Part shown: piece after piece, positions 9,174 through 20,519 of the stretch
Numbering within the stretch: the first letter of the stretch is position 1
Layout: every line of letters begins with the position of its first letter
NCBI GenBank assembly: GCA_029259175.1
Contig: JAPDJH010000004.1
Span: 163,645-187,644 of the forward strand
Source of the DNA: Hadesarchaea archaeon
GTDB lineage: Archaea > Hadarchaeota > Hadarchaeia > Hadarchaeales > Hadarchaeaceae
Length of the DNA: 24,000 nt
Direction: 5' to 3'
Notes under the pieces: generated by a model
What the model was told of the DNA's origin: nothing
The model's database searches: none
Seen by the model: only the letters and a program-made list of their open reading frames with translations
Position numbers and translations under genes: made by a program

Positions 9174-10382
9174 TCATTTTGAAATACTCAATCCGTATTT
9201 CTCTGCAATTTCCAAAAACGCCTCTGCAACTTTTTCTATTCGCTCACGGCTTAACCCGTACGTGTTCAATTTGAAATGCTTGGTTAAACCAGGCTGAATA
9301 CCAACTATTCCTCGATCTCTCAACTCCTCGTACAGAAAGAATCCCCTGCGCTTGTGATGTCGGGAAACTTCGTACAAACCCTCGGACTCCATGTGGATCA
9401 GCGTGTGATCTTTGGGCCTGACACCCAGCTGCCGCGTCCCCTCTATGCGCTCGAGCTGTTCAACCAGCCACCGGGCGTTCTCCACCTCCTCCGGCCATCT
9501 CTCGACTCGCTCGACCACGTGGGGAAAGGAGGCCATCATCGAAATGAGAGGACCACCCATCACGGTACAACCAAGCAGCGCGTATTCTTTTATGCTAAAC
9601 TTCCGTCCTGTCAGATCTCCCACGATCTGTGACGGCGCGAGCACTCGCTTCGCCATCTCCTTGGTCAGCGCAAGTACACCGGTGGAGGCACTCGCTGCCC
9701 AAGATTTATGACCGCTCCCTGTAATGATATCCGCTCCGAGCTCTCTCCCATCGATGGGCATCACACCCGCCGTGTAAGCGGCATTCAGCAAAAACGGAAC
9801 TTCGTACTCGTGAGCTATCTCTGCCACCCGTCTGGCATCGTTCAAATTGCCGTAGAGATAGTCCACATGGGTCAAAACCACGACCGCAGGCAATTTTCCG
9901 GTTTCGCGCTTTACCTCTTCTATCTTTGCCGCATAAGCATCGAGATCTACTCGAAATTCCGGATACCCGCTGTTCGGGACCTCTTTAATCTTCATCATGG
10001 CAAGCTCGGCCGCAACGTAGGTGGAATAGTGGGCCAGGCTGTCGATTACCACCACATCCCCCGGTCTACCAAGCATTCTGAACGCTATGAACTGCGCCTC
10101 GCGACACCGGGTCACGACACGCGCCACATCCATTCCAAGAAATTCCGCCAAGTCTTCAACGAAATCCGCTATGGGAGGCCGGGTAACCTTATCCAACCGG
10201 GGGGTTTTTGCAGGGCACCAATCACACGTAGAATACCCATCCCCAAATTCTGCCAATGCTTCTCTCGCCTCAGCGGTAAGAACCCCTCCACGCTGAATTG
10301 GATTGAGGTTGATATACCGATCCTCCTTAAAATCTCTCCTCAGATTCCGATACTTCTTCAGTCTCTCTTCGGAAAGCTTCAT
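9174..10382 (-). CDS. pscS: O-phosphoseryl-tRNA(Cys):Cys-tRNA synthase (SepCysS)
   Basis: The N-terminus is KYRNLRRDF..INLNPIQRGGVLTAEAREAL..FGDGYSTCDWC. The PLP-lysine block is ITGSGHKSWAASASTGVLAL. The 402-aa length and these motifs match SepCysS as I recall it from Archaeoglobus and methanogens. Its start overlaps the stop of the upstream E1 gene by 4 nt. Confidence 0.8.
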   Translation of the reverse strand: MKLSEERLKKYRNLRRDFKEDRYINLNPIQRGGVLTAEAREALAEFGDGYSTCDWCPAKTPRLDKVTRPPIADFVEDLAEFLGMDVARVVTRCREAQFIAFRMLGRPGDVVVIDSLAHYSTYVAAELAMMKIKEVPNSGYPEFRVDLDAYAAKIEEVKRETGKLPAVVVLTHVDYLYGNLNDARRVAEIAHEYEVPFLLNAAYTAGVMPIDGRELGADIITGSGHKSWAASASTGVLALTKEMAKRVLAPSQIVGDLTGRKFSIKEYALLGCTVMGGPLISMMASFPHVVERVERWPEEVENARWLVEQLERIEGTRQLGVRPKDHTLIHMESEGLYEVSRHHKRRGFFLYEELRDRGIVGIQPGLTKHFKLNTYGLSRERIEKVAEAFLEIAEKYGLSISK

Positions 10383-11173
10383 CCTCTACTCCTCCGGCCG
10401 CATATCTCACAGTGGGGATCGCGCTCAACTTTCATTACTTCAAACACCATCTCCATACCATCAAATATTAGCAACCGGCCTATCAATGGTCTCCCAAGAC
10501 CTGTGATCAGTTTTATCGCTTCCATTGCCTGCAAACAACCTATCACGCCCGGGGTTGCTCCGAGTACCGGGAATGCCCGCTTTCGCGGCGGGAGTGACGG
10601 AACCAAACACTGCAAACACGGCCCCTTCTTGGGCACAATAGTCATCAGCTGACCCAGGGTTCCCTCCACGGCCCCGTGAACAAGTGGAATTCTGTGCTTT
10701 ACACAGGCTCGGTTCAGCGCATACCTAGCAGGATAGTTGTCCGTGGCATCCACCACCACATCGGCACCGCGCACAAGAGGGTCCGCATTTTCGTTTGCCA
10801 CATGCAGAGATTTTCCCCTCACCCGCACATTTGGATTGAGAGCTCTCAGCTTCTCCATCGCCGAATCAGTTTTCTGGCGTCCGATGTCTTTATCCCAGTG
10901 CAAAATCTGACGATTGAGATTTGAGAGCTCTACTCGCTGATCGTCCACGAGCGTTAGCTTCCCCACACCCGCCGCTGTCAAATAAATACTGACCGGAGAC
11001 CCCAGACCGCCCAATCCTACAACCACCACATGCGCTCGCTTCAATTTGAGCTGACCTTTCCGACCAAAACCCGCAATCAACATCTGCCGACTATAACGTT
11101 CGAGTTCTTGAGGAGACAGTTTAGTCCTCATACCATTACCCTTTGGACTCCTGCTAAAAATACTTCCAACCAT
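10379..11173 (-). CDS. ThiF/MoeB/UbaA-type E1-like adenylyltransferase (no rhodanese domain)
   Basis: ERYSRQMLIAGFGRKGQLKLKRAHVVVVGLGGLGSPVSIYLTAAGVGKLTLVDDQRVELSNLNRQ. There are two CxxC pairs (CLQC and CEIC). The internal ATG at 11131 (MRTKLSPQELERYSRQ) is an alternative start. Confidence 0.9.
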   Translation of the reverse strand: MVGSIFSRSPKGNGMRTKLSPQELERYSRQMLIAGFGRKGQLKLKRAHVVVVGLGGLGSPVSIYLTAAGVGKLTLVDDQRVELSNLNRQILHWDKDIGRQKTDSAMEKLRALNPNVRVRGKSLHVANENADPLVRGADVVVDATDNYPARYALNRACVKHRIPLVHGAVEGTLGQLMTIVPKKGPCLQCLVPSLPPRKRAFPVLGATPGVIGCLQAMEAIKLITGLGRPLIGRLLIFDGMEMVFEVMKVERDPHCEICGRRSRG

Positions 11174-11176
11174 CGG

Positions 11177-11935
11177 TCAAGATTTTATACCGGGAACGAC
11201 TCCTCCACCAACCGGGACGGGACTCCTCTCATCAAAGGTTATAATCTCTGGAACCTCGCCCCAAACACCCACGTGTTCTCCACGTATTATCAGACATCCT
11301 TCTATCTCACGTATCCGGCTAGCCCGGTTCAACCCGTCTAAAATCGACTGTCGTGTGTCGGAACCGCGCACAGAATTCGCAACCGAAGTCGCAGCAGCGT
11401 CAGCTACCGAAGCCTCTCGGGCAAAGACCACGGTGGCGTCGGCATCGCCAAAACTAATCGAGTGTCCGATCGAACCAGAACTCGTACATATTCCGAGCGG
11501 CAATCTGGCCGATTTTATCAGAAAACCCAACTTACTGGATGTGCTGGCGGTGCCCGCATAAACTCCTACTATAAAATCTCGATCTCCCGCTATCGCAATG
11601 TCTCCACCATTTTCGACCAGCACATTCCTCGCTCCTTGCTCCAGAGCGGCCTCCATGGCTATCTGAGAAATCGCTCCGGCAACCGCTGCAAAAGGACCGA
11701 CCCGCGCAAGCTTTCCGGCCCTCAACATCAGCTCGATCACCCGCGGGTGTTCTCCCTCGAGCTCAACGGGTTCAAGTGACCAACGAAACTCTGGATAGGT
11801 CACAGCATAACGCTCCACCTCTTGTCTGGCCCTCAATGCCGCTTCTACCGCTGCATCGATCGCGCGCGCGTCGTCGGATTTTATAGTGAGTGCAGTCTCC
11901 TTGTAAACCCAGCGCTGAACGAGCAAATCCACCAC
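11177..11935 (-). CDS. UPF0280/COG2122 (ApbE-like) protein, MA1715-type sulfide-assimilation factor
   Basis: Blocks GPFAAVAGAISQIA, LVENGGDIAI, GICTSSGSIGHSISFGDADA and SVADAAATSVANSV match what I recall of the UPF0280 family. It lies between the NIL-ferredoxin and E1 genes. Confidence 0.6.
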   Translation of the reverse strand: MVDLLVQRWVYKETALTIKSDDARAIDAAVEAALRARQEVERYAVTYPEFRWSLEPVELEGEHPRVIELMLRAGKLARVGPFAAVAGAISQIAMEAALEQGARNVLVENGGDIAIAGDRDFIVGVYAGTASTSSKLGFLIKSARLPLGICTSSGSIGHSISFGDADATVVFAREASVADAAATSVANSVRGSDTRQSILDGLNRASRIREIEGCLIIRGEHVGVWGEVPEIITFDERSPVPVGGGVVPGIKS

Positions 11936-11936
11936 C

Positions 11937-12332
11937 TCACAACCTCGGAATCTTCAAAGCGCGCACCGGACACGCAGGAACACAGATCTCACACAAAACA
12001 CACTTCTGCTCATCCAGACCCAGCGAGGCATCCTCTTTCAGATACAATGCCTTGGTTGGACAGAGCGAAACACAAGCCCCACAGTGAACGCAGGAATCCC
12101 AGTCCACCCTGATCGCGTCTTTTATCTCTTGAAATTCTATTCCGCGTTTCGAGAGAGCGCTAAAAATCCGCTCCGCGTCCGAGTCCTTAACGGAAATCAG
12201 GATCTCCCCACCCTTTGTGTCCATGTCCGCATACAGGATGTTTACCAACACTCCCGTCTCTTTAATCACCGAAGCCAAAACAGGCTCCGCCGCTTTCTCC
12301 GCCGAGTATCGAAGCAAGATCCGCCTCGTCAT
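11937..12332 (-). CDS. NIL-domain / 2x[4Fe-4S] ferredoxin fusion (MA1822-type)
   Basis: An N-terminal NIL-like beta-alpha domain (RILLRYSAEKAAEPVLASVIKETGVLVNILYADMD) is followed by CVHCGACVSLCP and CVLCEICVPACP. Its start overlaps the upstream gene's stop by 4 nt. Confidence 0.8.
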   Translation of the reverse strand: MTRRILLRYSAEKAAEPVLASVIKETGVLVNILYADMDTKGGEILISVKDSDAERIFSALSKRGIEFQEIKDAIRVDWDSCVHCGACVSLCPTKALYLKEDASLGLDEQKCVLCEICVPACPVRALKIPRL

Positions 12333-13831
12333 TTTCTCCCACCTCCAATCAGCTTTGAAATATCATCGCTCGTCACTATCCCCCTGAGCCTGCCGCGAGC
12401 ATCAACAACCGGAACACCAGAGATCCCGAATTTATCCAGCTTTCTTGCAACGGCATCTATGGGCTCGTCTTCCCGCGCGGTTATCACCTGCCGTGTCATT
12501 ATTTCCGAAAGCTTCTGCTTGCCCTTTCCCACCGAAACCGCAATATCCCACGAAGTCACTATCCCGATCACGCGGTTTTCATCGTCCACAATGGGGAGGT
12601 GATCAAAGTTCTTCTCCGCGAATATCCGAGCCGCTTTGGTGATCGGATCCTCCGGCCTACCTACGACCACTTCGCGGGTCATTACCGCACCTGCCGTTAT
12701 GATCCGCGTCGGCTGTTTCATCGGGCGGAACTCCATATCCACAGGAAGCTGGCGCACCGGAGCGGTGAGGGAAAACTCCCCTCGCTCTATCAGCTCCTTG
12801 AGTTTCTCAGCGATTTCTCTCGCCACTTTGAGACTGCTGAGCGGACTGACCGGGACTTCCCGACCGTTCAATTCGATCTTGCCCTCCCACAGCTCCGCAT
12901 AGGTCAACTGCTTGAGCACCGGCCTGTCCCGTCGCGGAACTCCGTAGTCGAGCAAATCAATTTTAATCTCCTCATTGCTCCTGCCAGCGGTCCTCGCCAA
13001 ATCCTCGTCTAGAATCGGTATCGGAATCCCGATACCCACAAACAGCGATGTTCCATAGCGATGGATGTTCGCGCCACGCAGATACCGGGGTGACATCTCT
13101 TTTAAATCGCCCACCGTCATCAGCGTGCCCAGCTCTCGCTTCGGATCGTGCTGAGTGCCTTCCCAAACCACATATCCCTGAGCTCCGCCAATGAAAATTC
13201 GAGTTCCCGTGCCAATGGTCCGATAGGTGGGGTCTTTGTTCAGCGGACTGAGTTCCCCAGTACCAGCAAACGTAACGTTTCTGAATTCTGGAAGCAGGGT
13301 GCCCATATAGGTATAAATGGTCTCCTTCCGTGAATTGGTGGCAGCAACGTATCGTTGGTGAGCGTTTCTCGGATTCAGCAAAACGGCTTGGTTGAGGTCA
13401 TGGATGGTTATGGTCGTCTCCAGCTCCCTGCGCGGATAGCAATCGGTCCCGTATGCCAGAGCCCTAACATGGATCTCTTCGCCTCTGACCAAGTCCTCGA
13501 TCACGTGGCCTCCTCCATAGTCGAACCCCCGGGTTTCACTCAGCTGTGCGGCACCGATATATGCATCGACTGCTGCCACCCCTGTATACGCTTCGACATC
13601 GTTGAGCCAAACGCGTTGCATCTTGATGGGCGGATCAGCGTGCCCAAAGTTTAGCCAGGCACCCGAGCTACACATCGCACCAAACGTCCCGGTGGTCACC
13701 ACATCAACTTCTTTTGCCGCTGCTACGGCCCCCTTGCTCTTGACTATCTCGACCATCTCCTCGGCGGTAACGACCACGGCATCTCCACGCCTGATGCGCT
13801 CGTTGATTTCCTCGATTGTTTTCTTAACCAT
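12329..13831 (-). CDS. COG1900/DUF39 homocysteine-biosynthesis enzyme with two C-terminal CBS domains (MA1821/MJ0100-type)
   Basis: N-terminus KKTIEEINERIRRGDAVVVTAEEMVEIV...VDVVTTGTFGAMCSSGAWLNFGHADPPIKM. The C-terminal tandem CBS repeats are VMTREVVVGRPEDPITKAARIFAEKNFDHLPIVD and IMTRQVITAREDEPIDAVARKLDKFGISGVPVVD. Confidence 0.8.
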   Translation of the reverse strand: MVKKTIEEINERIRRGDAVVVTAEEMVEIVKSKGAVAAAKEVDVVTTGTFGAMCSSGAWLNFGHADPPIKMQRVWLNDVEAYTGVAAVDAYIGAAQLSETRGFDYGGGHVIEDLVRGEEIHVRALAYGTDCYPRRELETTITIHDLNQAVLLNPRNAHQRYVAATNSRKETIYTYMGTLLPEFRNVTFAGTGELSPLNKDPTYRTIGTGTRIFIGGAQGYVVWEGTQHDPKRELGTLMTVGDLKEMSPRYLRGANIHRYGTSLFVGIGIPIPILDEDLARTAGRSNEEIKIDLLDYGVPRRDRPVLKQLTYAELWEGKIELNGREVPVSPLSSLKVAREIAEKLKELIERGEFSLTAPVRQLPVDMEFRPMKQPTRIITAGAVMTREVVVGRPEDPITKAARIFAEKNFDHLPIVDDENRVIGIVTSWDIAVSVGKGKQKLSEIMTRQVITAREDEPIDAVARKLDKFGISGVPVVDARGRLRGIVTSDDISKLIGGGRK

Positions 13832-16789: not shown

Positions 16790-17575
16790 ATGTGCCTAGG
16801 AGTGCCAGCGCGTGTAGAAGAGGTGCGCGGAATCACAGCGATTGCAGATTTTGGAGGGATCAAACGTGAAATCTTGGTCGGAGTGAAAGATTTGCAGCCG
16901 GGCGATCTGGTGATGGTTCATGCGGGAATGGCTATCGGCAAGCTCACGGAGGAAGCCGTGATAGAAAATCTAATGGTGTACAAAGAGCTTTTCGTTGCCG
17001 AGTCCTTGATGCGGGGGGAAAGCGAGGAAAGTGCAAAAAGAACCGCTGAGAAAGAAATAGAGAAAATTCTGGAAGAGTTGGGAGTGGAAAAACCCATGAT
17101 CAAAGAAACAGAGGACGTCAGAACAGCCGAGCAGGTGGAAACGCCCATTCCGCCCAATGCGTTCAAGCGCAGGTATCGGGCCTCGCTCTCTGATACGGAC
17201 TACCTGCAAGTGATGCACTACACCAACTATCTGCGCTATTGTGAGCGCGCACAACAAGAGCTGCTGGACTCTATAGGGTTCGGGTACGCCAAGCTGATCC
17301 ACCAACACGGTCTTTTCATCCCTACTGTTGAAACCTCTATCAGGCTCAAGGGACCCATCAGGCTGGACAACGAATTTGAGGTTGCCGTGTGGGTGGAAGA
17401 AATCGGTCGAAAACACATCCGCTTTAAAAACGTGATAAGGAACCTCACGTCTAACAAGATTGTGGCCGAAGCAACGACCATAGCGGTCTGCACCGACATC
17501 AGTCTGATGGAGGGGATGGAGCTTCCGGCAGAACTGGTGGAAAAACTCAGGCCATACATGGAGGGTGCGAAATGA
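16790..17575 (+). CDS. HypC-family chaperone fused to a 4HBT/YbgC-type hotdog thioesterase domain (261 aa)
   Basis: The start is at the ATG at 16790, 2 nt after the hypD stop and preceded by GGGAAAGGGGAGGA. The N-terminus MCLGVPARVEEV...GDLVMVHAGMAI is a hallmark HypC domain (Cys2, His). An acidic linker covers about aa 75-125. The C-terminal part is RRYRASLSDTDYLQVMHYTNYLRYCERAQQELLDSIGFGYAKLIHQHGLFIPTVETSIRLKGPIRLDNEFEVAVWVEEIGRKHIRFKN, which is the 4-hydroxybenzoyl-CoA thioesterase pattern including the DTD Asp. Confidence 0.85.
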   Translation: MCLGVPARVEEVRGITAIADFGGIKREILVGVKDLQPGDLVMVHAGMAIGKLTEEAVIENLMVYKELFVAESLMRGESEESAKRTAEKEIEKILEELGVEKPMIKETEDVRTAEQVETPIPPNAFKRRYRASLSDTDYLQVMHYTNYLRYCERAQQELLDSIGFGYAKLIHQHGLFIPTVETSIRLKGPIRLDNEFEVAVWVEEIGRKHIRFKNVIRNLTSNKIVAEATTIAVCTDISLMEGMELPAELVEKLRPYMEGAK

Positions 17576-17883
17576 GGGTGAAGGTGAGGCTGTTCGCGAA
17601 CTTCAGAGAGGTGATGGGGACGGGAAATCTCGAAGTTGAAAACGTGCACAATATCGGGGAGCTGCTAAGCAAACTCACCGAGATGAAAAGAGAAATGGAA
17701 AAAGAACTCTACTACCCCGGCACAAAAGAACTCGTAAAAACGGTGCAGATAATGCACAACGGAAAAAACGTCAAATTACCCCAGGGTCTTGAAGCGGAGC
17801 TGAAAGAGGGCGACGAGATTGCAATATTTCCGCCCGTGGCCGGGGGAGAGGGCTCGAACACATCAGCTTCTCATGTCTCTTAA
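17572..17883 (+). CDS. MoaD/ThiS-family ubiquitin-like sulfur carrier encoded as a pro-protein (GG followed by an 11-aa tail)
   Basis: The start overlaps the upstream stop in an ATGA. The C-terminal region DEIAIFPPVAGG is the classic MoaD end, but the ORF continues EGSNTSASHVS before the stop. The last 21 nt overlap the convergent XdhC-like gene. Confidence 0.85.
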   Translation: MRVKVRLFANFREVMGTGNLEVENVHNIGELLSKLTEMKREMEKELYYPGTKELVKTVQIMHNGKNVKLPQGLEAELKEGDEIAIFPPVAGGEGSNTSASHVS

Positions 17884-18660
17884 ACTTCTGCCGCTCGCAT
17901 CCGGTCTGCGCAGTACTTTGATGATTTCAGCCATTATGCTGACGGCGATTTCCGCTGGTGTTTCGGCGCCGATATCGAGACCCACTGGGGCATGAACACG
18001 TTCCAACCACTCTTTGGACACCCCGTCACGCACCAAACGTTCAAAGGTCATCTGGATTCGGGTCCTGCTGGCTAGCCACCCCACATAACGTGCGCGTGAG
18101 CCGGACAGCGCTTTGAGCGCCTCTTCATCTCCTTTGTGTCTCGATGCAATAACCACAAAGGTGTTTTCGTCGACTTCGATCTCGCGCGCGGCTTGTTCAA
18201 TCGGTTTCTGAAGCACTTTCACTCCTTGGAACTCGGAAGGATCAAGCGCAGGATCGACCACTGTGACTTGAAAGCCGTTTCTCTTTCCCAGCTCCGCCAG
18301 CTCGCGTCCCACGTGACCACCGCCGACTATCAAAAGCTTTGGTGGAGGGAGTATGGGCTCGATGTAGAGCCGAACAGTCCCGCCGCATTCCATTCCTACA
18401 CCGCCTCTAGACTCTTCAACCAAATCCAACTCGATCAACTTAGGCTGGCGTGTTCTGAGCACCTCAAGGGCCTCGTTCACCGCACTGCTTTCTATACAAC
18501 CGCCGCCGATGGATCCGATGGTCGAACCGTCTGGAAGAACGAGCATCTTTGCGCCCAGATCACGGGGAGAGGATCCCTTACGCCCGACCACAGTCACTAC
18601 GGCGAAGGGCTTTCCTTCAGCCATCAGTCGTCCCATTTCCGCAAGCACCTTGGGCTCCAT
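17863..18660 (-). CDS. XdhC/CoxI-family accessory protein (XdhC_CoxI N-domain plus Rossmann-like C-domain)
   Basis: FAVVTVVGRKGSSPRDLGAKMLVLPDGSTIGSIGGGCIESS, then LLIVGGGHVGRELAELGKRNGFQVTVVD and PVGLDIGAETPAEIAVSIMAEI. Confidence 0.85.
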   Translation of the reverse strand: MEPKVLAEMGRLMAEGKPFAVVTVVGRKGSSPRDLGAKMLVLPDGSTIGSIGGGCIESSAVNEALEVLRTRQPKLIELDLVEESRGGVGMECGGTVRLYIEPILPPPKLLIVGGGHVGRELAELGKRNGFQVTVVDPALDPSEFQGVKVLQKPIEQAAREIEVDENTFVVIASRHKGDEEALKALSGSRARYVGWLASRTRIQMTFERLVRDGVSKEWLERVHAPVGLDIGAETPAEIAVSIMAEIIKVLRRPDASGRSLRDMRS

Positions 18661-18685
18661 CCATTCTCCTTTTCTTCTAAAATTT

Positions 18686-19120
18686 ATGAGAATAGCGGGC
18701 GGAGATTTATCGGTGCTGATACGTAAACAGGACTACCAGCTCATTGCGGAACACGCACAGAAAGAGGCGCCCAACGAGGCCTGTGGAGCGCTGCTCGGAA
18801 AACACGAAAACGAAAAAATCGTTGTGGAACGAGTCGTGAAGGCAAAAAATATCCGCGAGTCCCCGGTGGAATACGAAATCTCAGCAGAAGAAATCTTGGA
18901 AATCTATAGGCTCGCTGAAGTGCTGGAGCTCGAGGTGGTCGGGTTTTACCACAGCCATCCGTTCCACGGTCCATTGTGGTCAACTGTGGACGACGAGCGT
19001 AGCAAGCTGTGGATCAACCACCTTTTCCTGATTTACTCCGTGGCCCAGAAGGAGGCCAGATGTTACAAACGAGTAGCCGAAAATCGTGTTGAGGAGGAGC
19101 CCATCGAAATCGTTGAATAA
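18686..19120 (+). CDS. JAMM/MPN+ metalloprotease (Mov34 family)
   Basis: The start is taken at the ATG at 18686; the track start at 18509 overlaps the XdhC gene. EACGALLG carries the catalytic Glu, and GFYHSHPFHGPLWSTVD is the HxHx7Sx2D motif. Confidence 0.85.
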   Translation: MRIAGGDLSVLIRKQDYQLIAEHAQKEAPNEACGALLGKHENEKIVVERVVKAKNIRESPVEYEISAEEILEIYRLAEVLELEVVGFYHSHPFHGPLWSTVDDERSKLWINHLFLIYSVAQKEARCYKRVAENRVEEEPIEIVE

Positions 19121-19310: not shown

Positions 19311-20519
19311 CTAAGCCAGCGATCTGGAGATCTCTTCGACTACTGAAATCAGCCTTTCGATTTCTTCTTTTTTATTGTACAAATAGACCGAAGCCCTCAC
19401 CGATCCCTGCGGTCGGTTCAGCACCTCTCTGTGCAGGGGCATCGCACAGTGGTGGCCCGAGCGCACCATTATTTTGGCAGCGTTATCCAAGGTCGCTGCA
19501 ACATCGTGGGGGCCAAGTCCCTCCACATTAAAAGCCACTATTCCTGTGCGCTTAGAGGGCGGTGGGCCATAGATCTCAACCCGCTCAATCGACGAGAGCC
19601 CATCATACAACTCGCGCGTAAGCTTTCGTTCGTGAGCCGCGATTGCTGTCATCCCGTGAGTGCGCAGATATCTTACCGCTTCAGCCAATCCAATTGTCTC
19701 AGCAATTGGTGGGGTGCCCGCCTCAAAACCTTCAGGCGGTTTAGCCAGCTTGTAACCCTTCGACGAAACCTCATCGATGGTGCCTCCGCCAATAGCTAGC
19801 GGATCGAGTTCTGCCAACGCGTCCGCTCGAGCATAGAGTACTCCTACGCCCGTGGGGCCCAGCATCTTGTGACCGGAGAAAACCAAAAAGTCACAACCCA
19901 GCTTGCGAACACTCACAGGCATGTGCGGCACCGACTGTGCACCGTCTACGAGGACTAGAGCACCATGCTCGTGGGCTATCCGAACCACTTCCTTGACTGG
20001 GAGAACACACCCAAGCACGTTCGACACATGAGTGACCGCCACGAGTTTTGTTTGGTCGGAAACAGCTCGTTCAAAATCATCCAACGAAATCTCCCCCTCA
20101 CGTGATGCGCGTACGAGAACCAAGCGCACACCGCAGTCTTGGGCGAGACGTTGCCATGGAATGAAATTCGAGTGGTGCTCGATAAGTGTTGTAACGATGT
20201 GGTCTCCTCTCTTCCACCGCAATCCTCTCGCTACAGCATTTATTCCCTCTGTAGCATTCTTTGTGAAAATGATTTCCTCTCGTGCCGACGCCGATATGAA
20301 ACGCTGAATCTCTCTGCGGGCCTCTTCCATCTCGTGTGTCGCCCGCTGGGAAAGCCGGTGCACCCCACGTTCCACGTTGGCGCGGTACTCGCGGTAAAAC
20401 GAAAGCATGCGCTCGATCACTGGCTCAGGGGTCAGACTGCTTGCAGCGTTGTCGAGGTATATGATGCCCGTATCGAGAATGGGAAAATCCTTTCTTATCC
20501 GATCTACTCGCAACATCAT
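19311..20519 (-). CDS. sufS: class II (SufS/CsdA-type) cysteine desulfurase
   Basis: YLDNAASSLTP, the PLP-lysine block FLVFSGHKMLGPTGVGVLY, and the group II active-site block RSGHHCAMPL. Confidence 0.9.
   Translation of the reverse strand: MMLRVDRIRKDFPILDTGIIYLDNAASSLTPEPVIERMLSFYREYRANVERGVHRLSQRATHEMEEARREIQRFISASAREEIIFTKNATEGINAVARGLRWKRGDHIVTTLIEHHSNFIPWQRLAQDCGVRLVLVRASREGEISLDDFERAVSDQTKLVAVTHVSNVLGCVLPVKEVVRIAHEHGALVLVDGAQSVPHMPVSVRKLGCDFLVFSGHKMLGPTGVGVLYARADALAELDPLAIGGGTIDEVSSKGYKLAKPPEGFEAGTPPIAETIGLAEAVRYLRTHGMTAIAAHERKLTRELYDGLSSIERVEIYGPPPSKRTGIVAFNVEGLGPHDVAATLDNAAKIMVRSGHHCAMPLHREVLNRPQGSVRASVYLYNKKEEIERLISVVEEISRSLA

What the first reader, a model, noticed from the sequence alone, without database searches (positions are those of the whole stretch)
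17572..19120. MoaD-like ubiquitin-fold carrier encoded as a precursor (GG + EGSNTSASHVS) next to a JAMM protease and an XdhC-like protein
The Ubl ends ...DEIAIFPPVAGG-EGSNTSASHVS. The diglycine needed for adenylation or thiocarboxylation is therefore masked by an 11-residue tail. A JAMM/MPN+ metalloprotease with an intact E...HxHx7Sx2D motif lies about 800 bp away. This matches the logic of CysO/Mec+ and QbsE/QbsD, where a JAMM enzyme exposes or recycles the GG terminus.

The codons for the last six tail residues and the stop overlap the 3' end of the convergent XdhC-like gene. XdhC-family proteins handle sulfurated Mo cofactor, which suggests the carrier feeds a cofactor sulfuration pathway. 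The only E1 in the window is in the SepCysS operon.
Basis: partly seen in the sequence, partly recalled or inferred. Interest (0 to 1): 0.6.

Follow-up and report, generated by a model that had tools for sequence, protein, structure and literature searches.

The report
Capped ubiquitin-like sulfur carrier beside JAMM protease
An uncultured Hadarchaeota archaeon encodes a small ubiquitin-like sulfur-carrier protein whose reactive Gly-Gly end is capped by a disposable 11-residue tail, and the neighbouring JAMM protease most likely trims it off; this is a further example of a known kind of system, not a new one.

Summary
ORF 17572-17883 is a SAMP1/archaeal-MoaD protein. Its family match ends at Gly91-Gly92, and 11 disordered residues follow. 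A convergent XdhC gene overlaps its last 21 nt. A JAMM gene with an intact active-site motif follows at 18686-19120.

The tail is real: three independent assemblies carry an 11-residue tail on a near-identical protein. It is not conserved. The closest relatives have 0, 11 or 19 extra residues, and each tail ends where the antisense of xdhC happens to give a stop.

The precursor-plus-JAMM reading is supported. Sixteen of 41 Hadarchaeota genomes carry a Gly-Gly Ubl with a tail or an in-frame fusion (often to the E1). Fifteen of these have this JAMM, against 3 of 25 genomes without such Ubls. A second JAMM paralogue shows no such link.

The XdhC/cofactor-sulfuration reading is not supported. A same-genus genome has hypC-TE and xdhC back to back with no Ubl between them. 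Elsewhere XdhC pairs with a MobA-like gene, and the JAMM sits beside E1/SepCysS/homocysteine genes or a SufS-like desulfurase.

JAB trimming of capped or fused ThiS/MoaD proteins was predicted in 2006 and has been shown in other organisms. About 27% of the nearest family representatives carry residues after Gly-Gly. The scan has reported similar capped or E1-fused Ubls with a JAMM in other genomes. Verdict: a new member of a known kind, of modest interest.

The parts
17572..17847 (+). Beta-grasp domain of a SAMP1/archaeal-MoaD-family ubiquitin-like sulfur carrier, residues 1-92, ending in Gly91-Gly92
   Evidence: Pfam ThiS, full-length match 5-92. NCBIfam moaD_arch and SAMP1 above cut-off. Closest solved structure is M. 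acetivorans SAMP1, 2L52. AF2 model pLDDT is about 90 for residues 1-91. The ATG overlaps the hypC-TE stop (ATGA).
17848..17883 (+). 11-residue C-terminal cap EGSNTSASHVS plus the TAA stop. It is not conserved and is predicted to be disordered.
   Evidence: Outside every family profile. pLDDT below 50 for residues 92-103. Relatives have 0, 11 (ENPGASASHIS) or 19 unrelated residues. Bases 17851-17862 carry 8 of the 37 differences from contigs that are 98.4% identical.
17863..18660 (-). XdhC-family molybdenum-cofactor maturation factor, convergent with the Ubl gene. Its last 21 nt overlap the Ubl tail. Probably a positional neighbour, not a functional one.
   Evidence: Pfam XdhC_CoxI + XdhC_C. 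Below the NCBIfam equivalog cut-offs. Adjacent to hypC-TE with no Ubl in G001. Paired with a MobA-like gene elsewhere. The genome has 2 XDH-family hydroxylases.
18686..19120 (+). JAMM/MPN+ metalloprotease (JAMM1), the proposed Ubl-processing peptidase
   Evidence: Prok-JAB 66.9 bits. Motif E...HSHx7Sx2D, invariant in 16 orthologues. Similar to PfJAMM1 5LD9/5LDA, E=4.5e-10. Its presence follows that of tailed or fused Ubls.
19311..20519 (-). SufS-family cysteine desulfurase, convergent with JAMM1. Candidate persulfide donor for the Ubl thiocarboxylate.
   Evidence: Aminotran_5. NCBIfam SufS 486.9 bits, above the 475.1 cut-off. JAMM1-SufS adjacency recurs in L001, G001, G004 and Bathyarchaeota L128.
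10379..11173 (-). ThiF/MoeB/UbaA-type E1, the only one in the genome. It has no rhodanese domain. Translationally coupled to SepCysS (9174-10382).
   Evidence: ThiF 251.8 bits. MoeB subfamily above cut-off. Single strong ThiF match in G000. In relatives the Ubl lies directly upstream of this E1 or is fused to it.
16790..17575 (+). HypC fused to a 4HBT thioesterase, upstream of the Ubl gene with a stop/start overlap. This is context only.
   Evidence: Pfam HupF_HypC + 4HBT_2. Same order in L001, L004 and L120. The genome has a single HypD, with HypE and HypF elsewhere.

Best explanation
The gene encodes a SAMP1/MoaD-type ubiquitin-fold sulfur carrier that is made as an inactive precursor.

How the tail arose. 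In this lineage the gene sits wedged between hypC-TE and the convergent xdhC. It has no stop codon directly after Gly-Gly. Translation therefore runs on for 11 codons into the antisense of the xdhC 3' end.

Proposed steps:
- The tail is disordered and has no conserved sequence. It must be removed before the C-terminal glycine can be adenylated (inferred from the established chemistry of ThiS/MoaD/SAMP proteins).
- The JAMM1 metalloprotease encoded 0.8 kb downstream cuts after Gly92 (inferred from gene neighbourhood and from co-occurrence across genomes).
- The genome's single E1 (10379-11173) then adenylates the freed Gly-Gly.
- Sulfur, probably from the adjacent SufS-like desulfurase, converts the adenylate to a thiocarboxylate. 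Alternatively the Ubl is conjugated to target proteins.

Because JAMM1 is present, losing the stop codon after Gly-Gly costs little. This would explain why tails and in-frame fusions (Ubl-E1, Ubl-methyltransferase, Ubl-HD) accumulate only in genomes that carry JAMM1.

Which pathway the carrier serves is not settled. Candidates are tungsto/molybdopterin synthesis, SepCysS/COG1900 sulfur assimilation, tRNA thiolation and sampylation.
For: Shown directly:
- Domain identity and the internal Gly-Gly.
- Disordered tail.
- Intact JAMM motif, invariant in 16 orthologues, and similarity to PfJAMM1, which was crystallised with SAMP2.
- Single E1 in the genome.

Tail not conserved:
- Tails of 0, 11 or 19 aa occur in relatives that are 70-94% identical. 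Each ends at a chance stop in the antisense of xdhC.
- Between two strains the 276-nt domain differs at 1 base, while the unconstrained 15 nt of the tail differ at 8.

Co-occurrence across 41 Hadarchaeota genomes:
- JAMM1 is in 15 of 16 genomes with a tailed or fused Gly-Gly Ubl, and in 3 of 25 without (Fisher p = 2e-7, not corrected for relatedness). Mixed states occur within genera g1, g11 and g15.
- The paralogue JAMM2 shows no association: 12/16 against 17/25.
- JAMM1-less genomes (G011, G012, G019) keep the same Ubl-E1-SepCysS operon, but with a Gly-Gly-stop Ubl. JAMM1 thus goes with capped or fused Ubls, not with the operon itself.

Neighbourhood:
- JAMM1 lies beside E1/Ubl/SepCysS/COG1900 genes in 11 relatives, and beside the SufS-like gene in the window, L001, G001 and G004.
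- A Bathyarchaeota homologue sits in a ThiS-PALP fusion / E1 / SufS / JAMM row.

Precedent: Iyer et al. 2006 (PMC1779556) predicted JAB cleavage of fused ThiS/MoaD. JAMM cleavage of a linear MoaD-MoaE fusion by DR0402 is cited in PMC11237513.
Against:
- The co-occurrence test is not phylogenetically corrected.
- Three genomes have JAMM1 but no capped Ubl was found (G013, G026, G036). One genome has a Ubl-E1 fusion but no JAMM1 was found (G016, 79% complete).
- JAMM1 scores below the NCBIfam desampylase equivalog cut-off, 74.5 against 130 bits.
- A second JAMM exists in the genome.
- The window's Ubl clade has no clear orthologue in the other GTDB Hadarchaeota genomes, so its pathway cannot be read from context.
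Confidence: 0.65

Rival explanations
1. One reading: after JAMM processing, the carrier feeds sulfur to an XdhC-bound molybdenum cofactor. The Ubl, XdhC, JAMM and the desulfurase would form one cofactor-sulfuration module.
For: - The genes are adjacent, and the Ubl and xdhC genes overlap.
- A SufS-like desulfurase lies beside them.
- The genome has two XDH-family Mo hydroxylases that would need a sulfurated cofactor, and five AORs.
- The nearest outgroup of the window's Ubl clade is a MoaD next to MoeA genes.
- JAMM1 and XdhC are also neighbours in G004 and L001.
Against: - In same-genus G001, hypC-TE and xdhC are directly convergent with no Ubl.
- In other genera XdhC's conserved convergent partner is a MobA-like transferase, and no Ubl match maps to the XdhC stretches examined.
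- JAMM1 is mostly beside E1/SepCysS genes, not XdhC.
- By established knowledge (R. capsulatus XdhC/NifS4, eukaryotic ABA3), the terminal sulfido ligand comes from a desulfurase persulfide, not from a thiocarboxylate.
Confidence: 0.1
2. The capped Ubl is never processed. It is either a decaying gene copy or a beta-grasp protein that works non-covalently, with its Gly-Gly no longer used.
For: - The tail is not conserved, and the gene was recently relocated.
- A whole clade of related Hadarchaeota Ubls lacks Gly-Gly (endings such as PPEEK and PPGASD), so Ubls that are never activated do exist.
- The genome has other Ubls for MoaE and NcsA.
Against: - The FPPVAGG end and the whole domain stay conserved at 70-94% identity across lineages whose tails differ completely.
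- The domain differs at only 1 of 276 bases between two strains, while the tail patch is scrambled.
- Capped Ubls occur almost only where JAMM1 is present.
Confidence: 0.12
3. The tail is removed, but by another enzyme: the second JAMM (own genome C2:13467-13826), a carboxypeptidase or a general protease. JAMM1 would then act mainly as a desampylase or as a Mec+/HcyD-like product-releasing hydrolase.
For: - JAMM2 has an intact HSHx7Sx2D motif.
- G016 has a Ubl-E1 fusion and JAMM2, but no JAMM1 was found.
- Three genomes have JAMM1 without capped Ubls, so JAMM1 must have another role there.
- HvJAMM1 is known as a desampylase (PMC4443979).
Against: - JAMM2's distribution is unrelated to capped Ubls, and it was not found in four genomes that have them (G017, G020, G022, G023).
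- G016 is only 79% complete.
- The two roles do not exclude each other. By my recollection of the primary papers, HcyD and QbsD both trim the carrier, and HcyD also releases the product.
Confidence: 0.1
4. The tail is an artefact of assembly or sequencing, such as a miscalled stop codon.
For: The genome is a metagenome-assembled genome, and no reads could be laid on it.
Against: - The same 11-residue tail length and stop position occur on three contigs from independent samples.
- A different 19-aa tail is found in three further assemblies.
- About 27% of the nearest family representatives worldwide carry residues after Gly-Gly.
Confidence: 0.02

Closest known systems
Haloferax volcanii SAMP1-3 / UbaA / HvJAMM1, and Pyrococcus furiosus PfJAMM1-SAMP2 (PDB 5LD9/5LDA)
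   Same: Archaeal MoaD/SAMP1-type beta-grasp Ubl, a single E1 that serves several Ubls, and a small stand-alone JAMM of the same subfamily. By my recollection, HvJAMM1 also cuts a linear SAMP1-MoaE fusion. PMC4443979 covers its action on SAMP1-MoaE conjugates.
   Different: To my knowledge the characterised SAMPs are encoded ending at Gly-Gly, and HvJAMM1 is described as a deconjugating enzyme. Here the Ubl is encoded with a cap, so the JAMM would be needed before first use. JAMM1 scores below the NCBIfam desampylase cut-off.
HcyS / HcyD / HcyF of Wolinella succinogenes (Krishnamoorthy & Begley 2011, recalled; not in the searchable library) and QbsE / QbsD of Pseudomonas fluorescens (recalled)
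   Same: A ThiS-like carrier is encoded with extra residues after Gly-Gly (Ala in HcyS, Cys-Phe in QbsE). A JAMM protease in the same gene cluster removes them before E1 adenylation and thiocarboxylate formation.
   Different: Those systems are bacterial, with short fixed caps and defined pathways (MetY-dependent homocysteine synthesis, quinolobactin). Here the cap is 11 aa and varies between close relatives, no MetY or Qbs genes are nearby, and homocysteine genes are of the COG1900 type.
CysO / CysM / Mec+ of Mycobacterium tuberculosis, and the ThiS-JAB-E1-cysteine synthase operons of Iyer et al. 2006 (PMC1779556, types 4c-4e)
   Same: A Ubl, E1 and JAMM embedded among cysteine and sulfur-assimilation genes. 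In Hadarchaeota relatives JAMM1 sits beside Ubl-E1-SepCysS and COG1900 genes. A Bathyarchaeota homologue sits in a ThiS-PALP fusion / E1 / SufS / JAMM row.
   Different: There is no CysM in the window; the cysteine enzyme is tRNA-dependent SepCysS. Mec+ releases cysteine from CysO, whereas here the inferred role is precursor trimming. JAMM1-less relatives keep the Ubl-E1-SepCysS operon.
Linear MoaD-MoaE and MoaD-MoeB fusions (DR0402 of Deinococcus; Thaumarchaeota Ubl-E1; PMC11237513, PMC2948915) and the Caldiarchaeum pro-ubiquitin/Rpn11 pair (PMC6043591)
   Same: A Gly-Gly Ubl encoded with C-terminal material that a JAMM must remove. The Hadarchaeota relatives carry the same kind of Ubl-E1 fusion.
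   Different: In the window the extension is a short peptide without any domain. The Hadarchaeota fusions and their link to JAMM1 did not appear in the papers I retrieved.

Membership tests
ThiS/MoaD superfamily, SAMP1/archaeal MoaD subfamily | Beta-grasp fold recognised by the family profiles | tested here: met
   Pfam ThiS 57.6 bits against a 22.5 cut-off. NCBIfam moaD_arch 81 against 49.5, and SAMP1 81 against 60. The AF2 model is a beta-grasp with pLDDT about 90.
ThiS/MoaD superfamily, SAMP1/archaeal MoaD subfamily | Gly-Gly at the C-terminus of the mature protein | tested here: inconclusive
   Gly-Gly is present at residues 91-92, at the profile end, but 11 residues follow it in the encoded protein. 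The mature end can only be shown by experiment.
ThiS/MoaD superfamily, SAMP1/archaeal MoaD subfamily | Cognate ThiF/MoeB/UbaA-type E1 in the genome | tested here: met
   One strong ThiF match in G000, at window 10379-11173.
ThiS/MoaD superfamily, SAMP1/archaeal MoaD subfamily | Adenylation and thiocarboxylate or isopeptide formation at the terminal Gly | not testable with these tools
   Needs biochemistry.
JAMM/MPN+ metalloproteases (Prok-JAB; HvJAMM1/PfJAMM1-like) | E...HxHx7Sx2D zinc-site motif | tested here: met
   E31, H89, H91, S99 and D102 (M1 numbering), invariant in 16 orthologues.
JAMM/MPN+ metalloproteases (Prok-JAB; HvJAMM1/PfJAMM1-like) | Family profile above the curated cut-off | tested here: met
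   Prok-JAB 66.9 bits against 25. PfJAMM1 5LD9 at E=4.5e-10.
HvJAMM1 desampylase equivalog (NCBIfam NF041370) | Score above the equivalog cut-off | tested here: not met
   74.5 bits against a 130 cut-off. It is related but is not filed as the haloarchaeal equivalog.
JAMM-dependent sulfur-carrier precursor systems (HcyS/HcyD, QbsE/QbsD type) | Carrier encoded with residues after Gly-Gly, and a JAMM gene in the same neighbourhood | tested here: met
   An 11-aa cap, with the JAMM gene 0.8 kb downstream. The same arrangement is in L001.
JAMM-dependent sulfur-carrier precursor systems (HcyS/HcyD, QbsE/QbsD type) | JAMM cleaves exactly after Gly-Gly | not testable with these tools
   Only indirect support: JAMM1 co-occurs with capped or fused Ubls, 15/16 against 3/25 genomes.
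CysO/CysM/Mec+ pathway | CysM-type PLP cysteine synthase coupled to the carrier | tested here: not met
   No PALP/CysM gene among the window ORFs scanned; SepCysS is present instead. A ThiS-PALP fusion occurs only in the distant Bathyarchaeota locus L128.
XdhC family (Moco maturation factor) | XdhC_CoxI N-domain plus XdhC_C Rossmann domain | tested here: met
   88.4 and 125.6 bits. It is below the NCBIfam equivalog cut-offs for xanthine XdhC (114 against 162) and XdhC_rel_AOR (209 against 350).
   No Ubl lies at the hypC-TE/xdhC junction in G001. XdhC pairs with a MobA-like gene in other genera.

The most novel reading that the evidence does not exclude
In Hadarchaeota the Ubl/E1 pair would deliver sulfur, as a protein thiocarboxylate, to tRNA-dependent cysteine synthesis (SepCysS) and to COG1900/NIL-ferredoxin/COG2122 homocysteine synthesis. 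A SufS-like desulfurase would charge the carrier, and JAMM1 would mature it. The window's capped Ubl would be the relocated carrier of this route.

Basis:
- In many relatives the gene order is COG1900 - NIL-Fd - COG2122 - Ubl - E1 - SepCysS, with overlapping or fused reading frames.
- In the window the E1 stop overlaps the SepCysS start, but no Ubl gene remains in that operon.
Probability: 0.15. Interest if true: 0.75.

Novelty: new member of a known kind. Interest (0 to 1): 0.35.

Why it matters
A cap on the Gly-Gly end makes the protease obligatory for the first use of the carrier, as with ubiquitin precursors in eukaryotes. The Hadarchaeota data give a clean natural experiment: capped or fused carriers appear almost only where one particular JAMM is present. 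That pattern supports a processing role for this archaeal JAMM subfamily and offers simple substrates for testing it, namely an 11-residue cap and the Ubl-E1 fusions.

The mechanism itself was predicted in 2006 and has been demonstrated in bacteria, so the specific finding adds an example and not a principle.

The more interesting lead lies outside the finding's own claim. The Ubl and E1 are wired into the SepCysS and COG1900 operon, where the physiological sulfur donor is still unknown.

Tried and rejected
- Sequencing or assembly error: rejected, because independent assemblies show the same tails.
- Conserved propeptide: rejected. Tails are 0, 11 or 19 aa with no shared sequence beyond the part constrained by xdhC on the other strand.
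- Ubl as part of hydrogenase maturation (it is translationally coupled to hypC-TE): considered unlikely. The genome has one HypD, with HypE and HypF elsewhere, so this is the ordinary hyp pair. G001 has hypD-hypC-TE without the Ubl.
- Orthology by tree: the 92-residue tree is poorly resolved. It places the window clade apart from both the MoaE-linked and the E1-linked clades, so no pathway could be assigned.
- Templated origin of the 12-nt variable patch: no copy of the alternative allele was found in the genome.
- The search for related loci with a JAMM1 alignment failed because no stretch was conserved enough. The single-protein scan worked.
- One region request was over the size limit and was resent.
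- Literature searches for SepCysS together with ThiF, MoeB, Ubl or sulfur-carrier terms returned no paper among those listed that mentions SepCysS. The HcyS/HcyD paper is not in the library.


Full report
**1. The observation**

The region holds four genes in three orientations.

- **Ubl.** ORF 17572-17883(+) encodes 103 aa ending ...DEIAIFPPVAGG-EGSNTSASHVS.
  - Pfam ThiS covers residues 5-92 over the whole profile.
  - NCBIfam moaD_arch and SAMP1 both score 81 bits, above their cut-offs, and both stop at residue 92.
  - The nearest solved structures are M. acetivorans SAMP1 (2L52), Ta0895 and P. furiosus MoaD; in the alignments shown (2L52 and Ta0895) the chain ends at the aligned Gly-Gly.
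  - An AlphaFold2 model gives a confident beta-grasp for residues 1-91 (pLDDT about 90) and pLDDT below 50 for residues 92-103.
- **XdhC.** XdhC_CoxI + XdhC_C at 17863-18660(-) overlaps the last six tail codons and the stop.
- **JAMM.** The gene begins at ATG 18686, three bases before the coordinate I first used, and ends at 19120.
  - Its motif is E31...H89-S-H91-x7-S99-x2-D102.
  - It matches Prok-JAB and resembles PfJAMM1 (5LD9/5LDA) at E=4.5e-10.
- **Flanking genes.**
  - Upstream are HypD and a HypC-thioesterase fusion whose stop overlaps the Ubl start.
  - Downstream, convergent with the JAMM gene, is a SufS-family desulfurase.
- **Rest of the window.** It is rich in sulfur genes: COG1900/HcyBio, NIL-ferredoxin, COG2122, E1, SepCysS (13831-9174, minus strand), Thi4, ThiI, and NifS.
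- **Organism.** Earlier notes of this scan call it a Hadarchaeota archaeon. The genome is 1.3 Mb and 91% complete.

**2. Is the tail real, and is it conserved?**

- Word-based homologue search found few close relatives, and their ends differ:

| Relative | Identity to the window Ubl | Residues after Gly-Gly |
|---|---|---|
| P0002 | 94% | 11 (ENPGASASHIS) |
| P0003 | 73% | none (stop directly after Gly-Gly) |
| P0004 | 70% | 19, unrelated sequence |

- All three sit in the same context, hypD / hypC-TE / Ubl / convergent xdhC. In L001 the context continues with JAMM, SufS and ThrRS-ED as in the window.
- The DNA alignment shows each tail ending at the first stop that the antisense of the xdhC 3' end offers. 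In L004 the two genes share a palindromic CTAG as their stops.
- Between the window and three contigs from other samples, identity is 98.4% over about 2.2 kb.
  - The 276-nt Ubl domain differs at one base.
  - Eight of the 37 differences fall in 17851-17862. These are the only bases between the Gly-Gly codons and the xdhC stop.
- The tail is therefore real but carries no conserved sequence.
- In same-genus G001, hypC-TE and xdhC are directly convergent with no Ubl between them. The Ubl was therefore inserted at this junction in the window's immediate clade.

**3. Does the JAMM go with capped Ubls?**

- I located every ThiS/MoaD-like domain found in 41 Hadarchaeota genomes and read what follows the profile end.
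- Sixteen genomes have at least one Gly-Gly Ubl with extra C-terminal material:
  - tails of 1-15 aa;
  - in-frame Ubl-E1 fusions of two types in 11 genomes, for example ...FPPVSGGAALTPEELERYNRQ...;
  - Ubl-methyltransferase and Ubl-HD hydrolase fusions.
- JAMM1 orthologues occur in 15 of these 16 genomes. The exception is 79% complete. They occur in 3 of the 25 genomes without capped Ubls.
  - Fisher p = 2e-7, not corrected for relatedness.
  - Mixed states occur within genera g1, g11 and g15.
- The genome's second JAMM is in 29 of 41 genomes and shows no relation to capped Ubls: 12/16 against 17/25, p = 0.73.
- JAMM1-less genomes such as G011, G012 and G019 keep the COG1900 / NIL-Fd / COG2122 / Ubl / E1 / SepCysS operon, with a Ubl that stops right after Gly-Gly. 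JAMM1 thus goes with capped or fused Ubls, not with the operon itself.

**4. Where JAMM1 and XdhC normally sit**

- **JAMM1.**
  - In 11 relatives it lies beside E1, Ubl, SepCysS and COG1900-type genes.
  - Only the window, L001, G001 and G004 place it beside the SufS-like gene, and XdhC is also adjacent in three of these.
  - Outside the phylum its closest relatives are in Bathyarchaeia. One of these loci reads ThiS-PALP fusion / E1 / SufS-like / JAMM, a CysO/CysM/Mec+-like layout.
- **XdhC.**
  - In other genera it is convergent with a MobA-like nucleotidyltransferase and lies near a DUF5698/DUF2179 gene.
  - The genome has two XDH-family Mo hydroxylases, a MobA-like gene and five AORs. XdhC is thus a credible cofactor maturation factor in its own right.
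  - Nothing beyond position in this one clade ties it to the Ubl.

**5. The other parts**

- The genome has one true E1, at window 10379-11173.
- It has three Ubls:
  - the capped one described here;
  - a MoaD that ends Gly-Gly-Glu and overlaps MoaE;
  - a TtuB/SAMP2-like Ubl next to NcsA/TtuA.
- The E1 has no rhodanese domain (264 aa), so a persulfide donor is needed. The SufS-like enzyme beside JAMM1 is a candidate; this is inference.
- The hypCD pair is the genome's only one, and HypE and HypF lie elsewhere. Coupling of the Ubl gene to hypC-TE looks positional.

**6. How common is this?**

- Of 148 nearest representatives of this Ubl in a 1.8-billion-protein library, the ends are as follows:

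| End of protein | Representatives |
|---|---|
| Exactly at Gly-Gly | 107 |
| 1-2 extra residues | 6 |
| 3-30 extra residues | 23 |
| More than 30 extra residues | 11 |

- Iyer et al. 2006 proposed that JAB domains free the C-terminus of fused ThiS/MoaD, and they listed ThiS-JAB-E1-cysteine synthase operons (PMC1779556).
- Makarova and Koonin 2010 noted Ubl-E1 fusions in Thaumarchaeota. They also noted that archaeal Jab genes are rarely next to Ubl genes (PMC2948915).
- PMC11237513 catalogues MoaD-MoeB and MoaD-MoaE fusions and cites JAMM cleavage of the latter.
- Trimming of HcyS by HcyD and of QbsE by QbsD is recalled from my own knowledge of the primary papers, which are not in the searchable library.
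- The scan has reported comparable capped or E1-fused Ubls with a JAMM in other genomes.

**7. Verdict**

- The most likely mechanism is a pro-Ubl trimmed after Gly92 by JAMM1 and then activated by the single E1 (confidence 0.65).
- The cap is a tolerated read-through, not a designed propeptide.
- The XdhC link is probably an accident of gene order.
- The finding is a new member of a known kind.
- The most novel reading still open is that the Ubl/E1 pair supplies sulfur to SepCysS and COG1900 in this phylum. Gene order suggests this, but it is untested.

Noticed in passing
L016, L018, L019, L021, L022, L032, L037 (type 1); L046, L050, L054, L098 (type 2): In 11 Hadarchaeota genomes the Ubl is fused in frame to its E1: Gly-Gly is followed directly by about 245-276 aa of ThiF. 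Several of these fusions sit inside COG1900 / NIL-Fd / COG2122 / Ubl-E1 / SepCysS operons or next to MoaE.
   Followed up: partly
window 9174-13831 (-), and L045, L046, L048: COG1900/HcyBio, NIL-ferredoxin, COG2122, E1 and SepCysS form one tight operon. Relatives insert a Ubl just before the E1. No listed paper from my searches mentioned SepCysS alongside an E1 or Ubl term.
   Followed up: partly
window 17851-17862: A 12-nt patch carries 8 substitutions against contigs that are 98.4% identical overall (L120-122), with the reading frame kept. It looks like a single multi-base replacement. No template for the other allele was found in the genome.
   Followed up: partly
window 16790-17575; also L001, L004, L051, L113: HypC fused to a 4HBT/YbgC-type acyl-CoA thioesterase, conserved in several Hadarchaeota genera. 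In G007 HypC stands alone. Its relevance to ligand synthesis for [NiFe] hydrogenase is unexplored.
   Followed up: no
L073:920-1789, L101:1529-2458, L086:942-2477: Other in-frame fusions after Gly-Gly: Ubl joined to an MTS-type methyltransferase (G006, G015, G022) and Ubl joined to an HD phosphohydrolase (G014). All are in genomes that have JAMM1.
   Followed up: partly
L104, L084, L088, L089, L091, L096, L097, L105-L109, L046:2473-2748: A clade of MoaD-like beta-grasp proteins lacks the Gly-Gly (endings such as PPEEK, PPGASD, SPLPEGE). It is widespread in the order, including in genomes without JAMM1.
   Followed up: no
L008:1456-1776 (own genome C3): The genome's canonical MoaD ends Gly-Gly-Glu, one residue beyond the diglycine, and its stop overlaps the MoaE start. 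It would also need trimming.
   Followed up: no
L128:2000-6505 (Bathyarchaeota MAG): A ThiS domain fused to a PALP (cysteine-synthase-like) enzyme, followed by an E1, a SufS-like desulfurase and a JAMM1 homologue on one strand. This is an archaeal CysO/CysM/Mec+-like cluster.
   Followed up: partly
L110-L112, L115, L118: In other Hadarchaeota, XdhC is convergent with, and in the L110-L112/L115 group overlaps, a MobA-like NTP transferase. In L111 an amidohydrolase and a DHO_dh-ferredoxin gene lie upstream. From memory this resembles YqeB/YgfJ-type Mo-hydroxylase accessory loci.
   Followed up: partly
own genome C2:13467-13826: A second, shorter JAMM (119 aa, motif intact) is present in 29 of 41 relatives. 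Its presence is independent of capped Ubls, and its function is unknown.
   Followed up: partly
window 18661-18685: Only 25 nt separate the divergent xdhC and JAMM1 start codons. The A/T-rich stretch AAAATTTAT there could serve as a shared TATA element, with leaderless transcripts on both sides.
   Followed up: no
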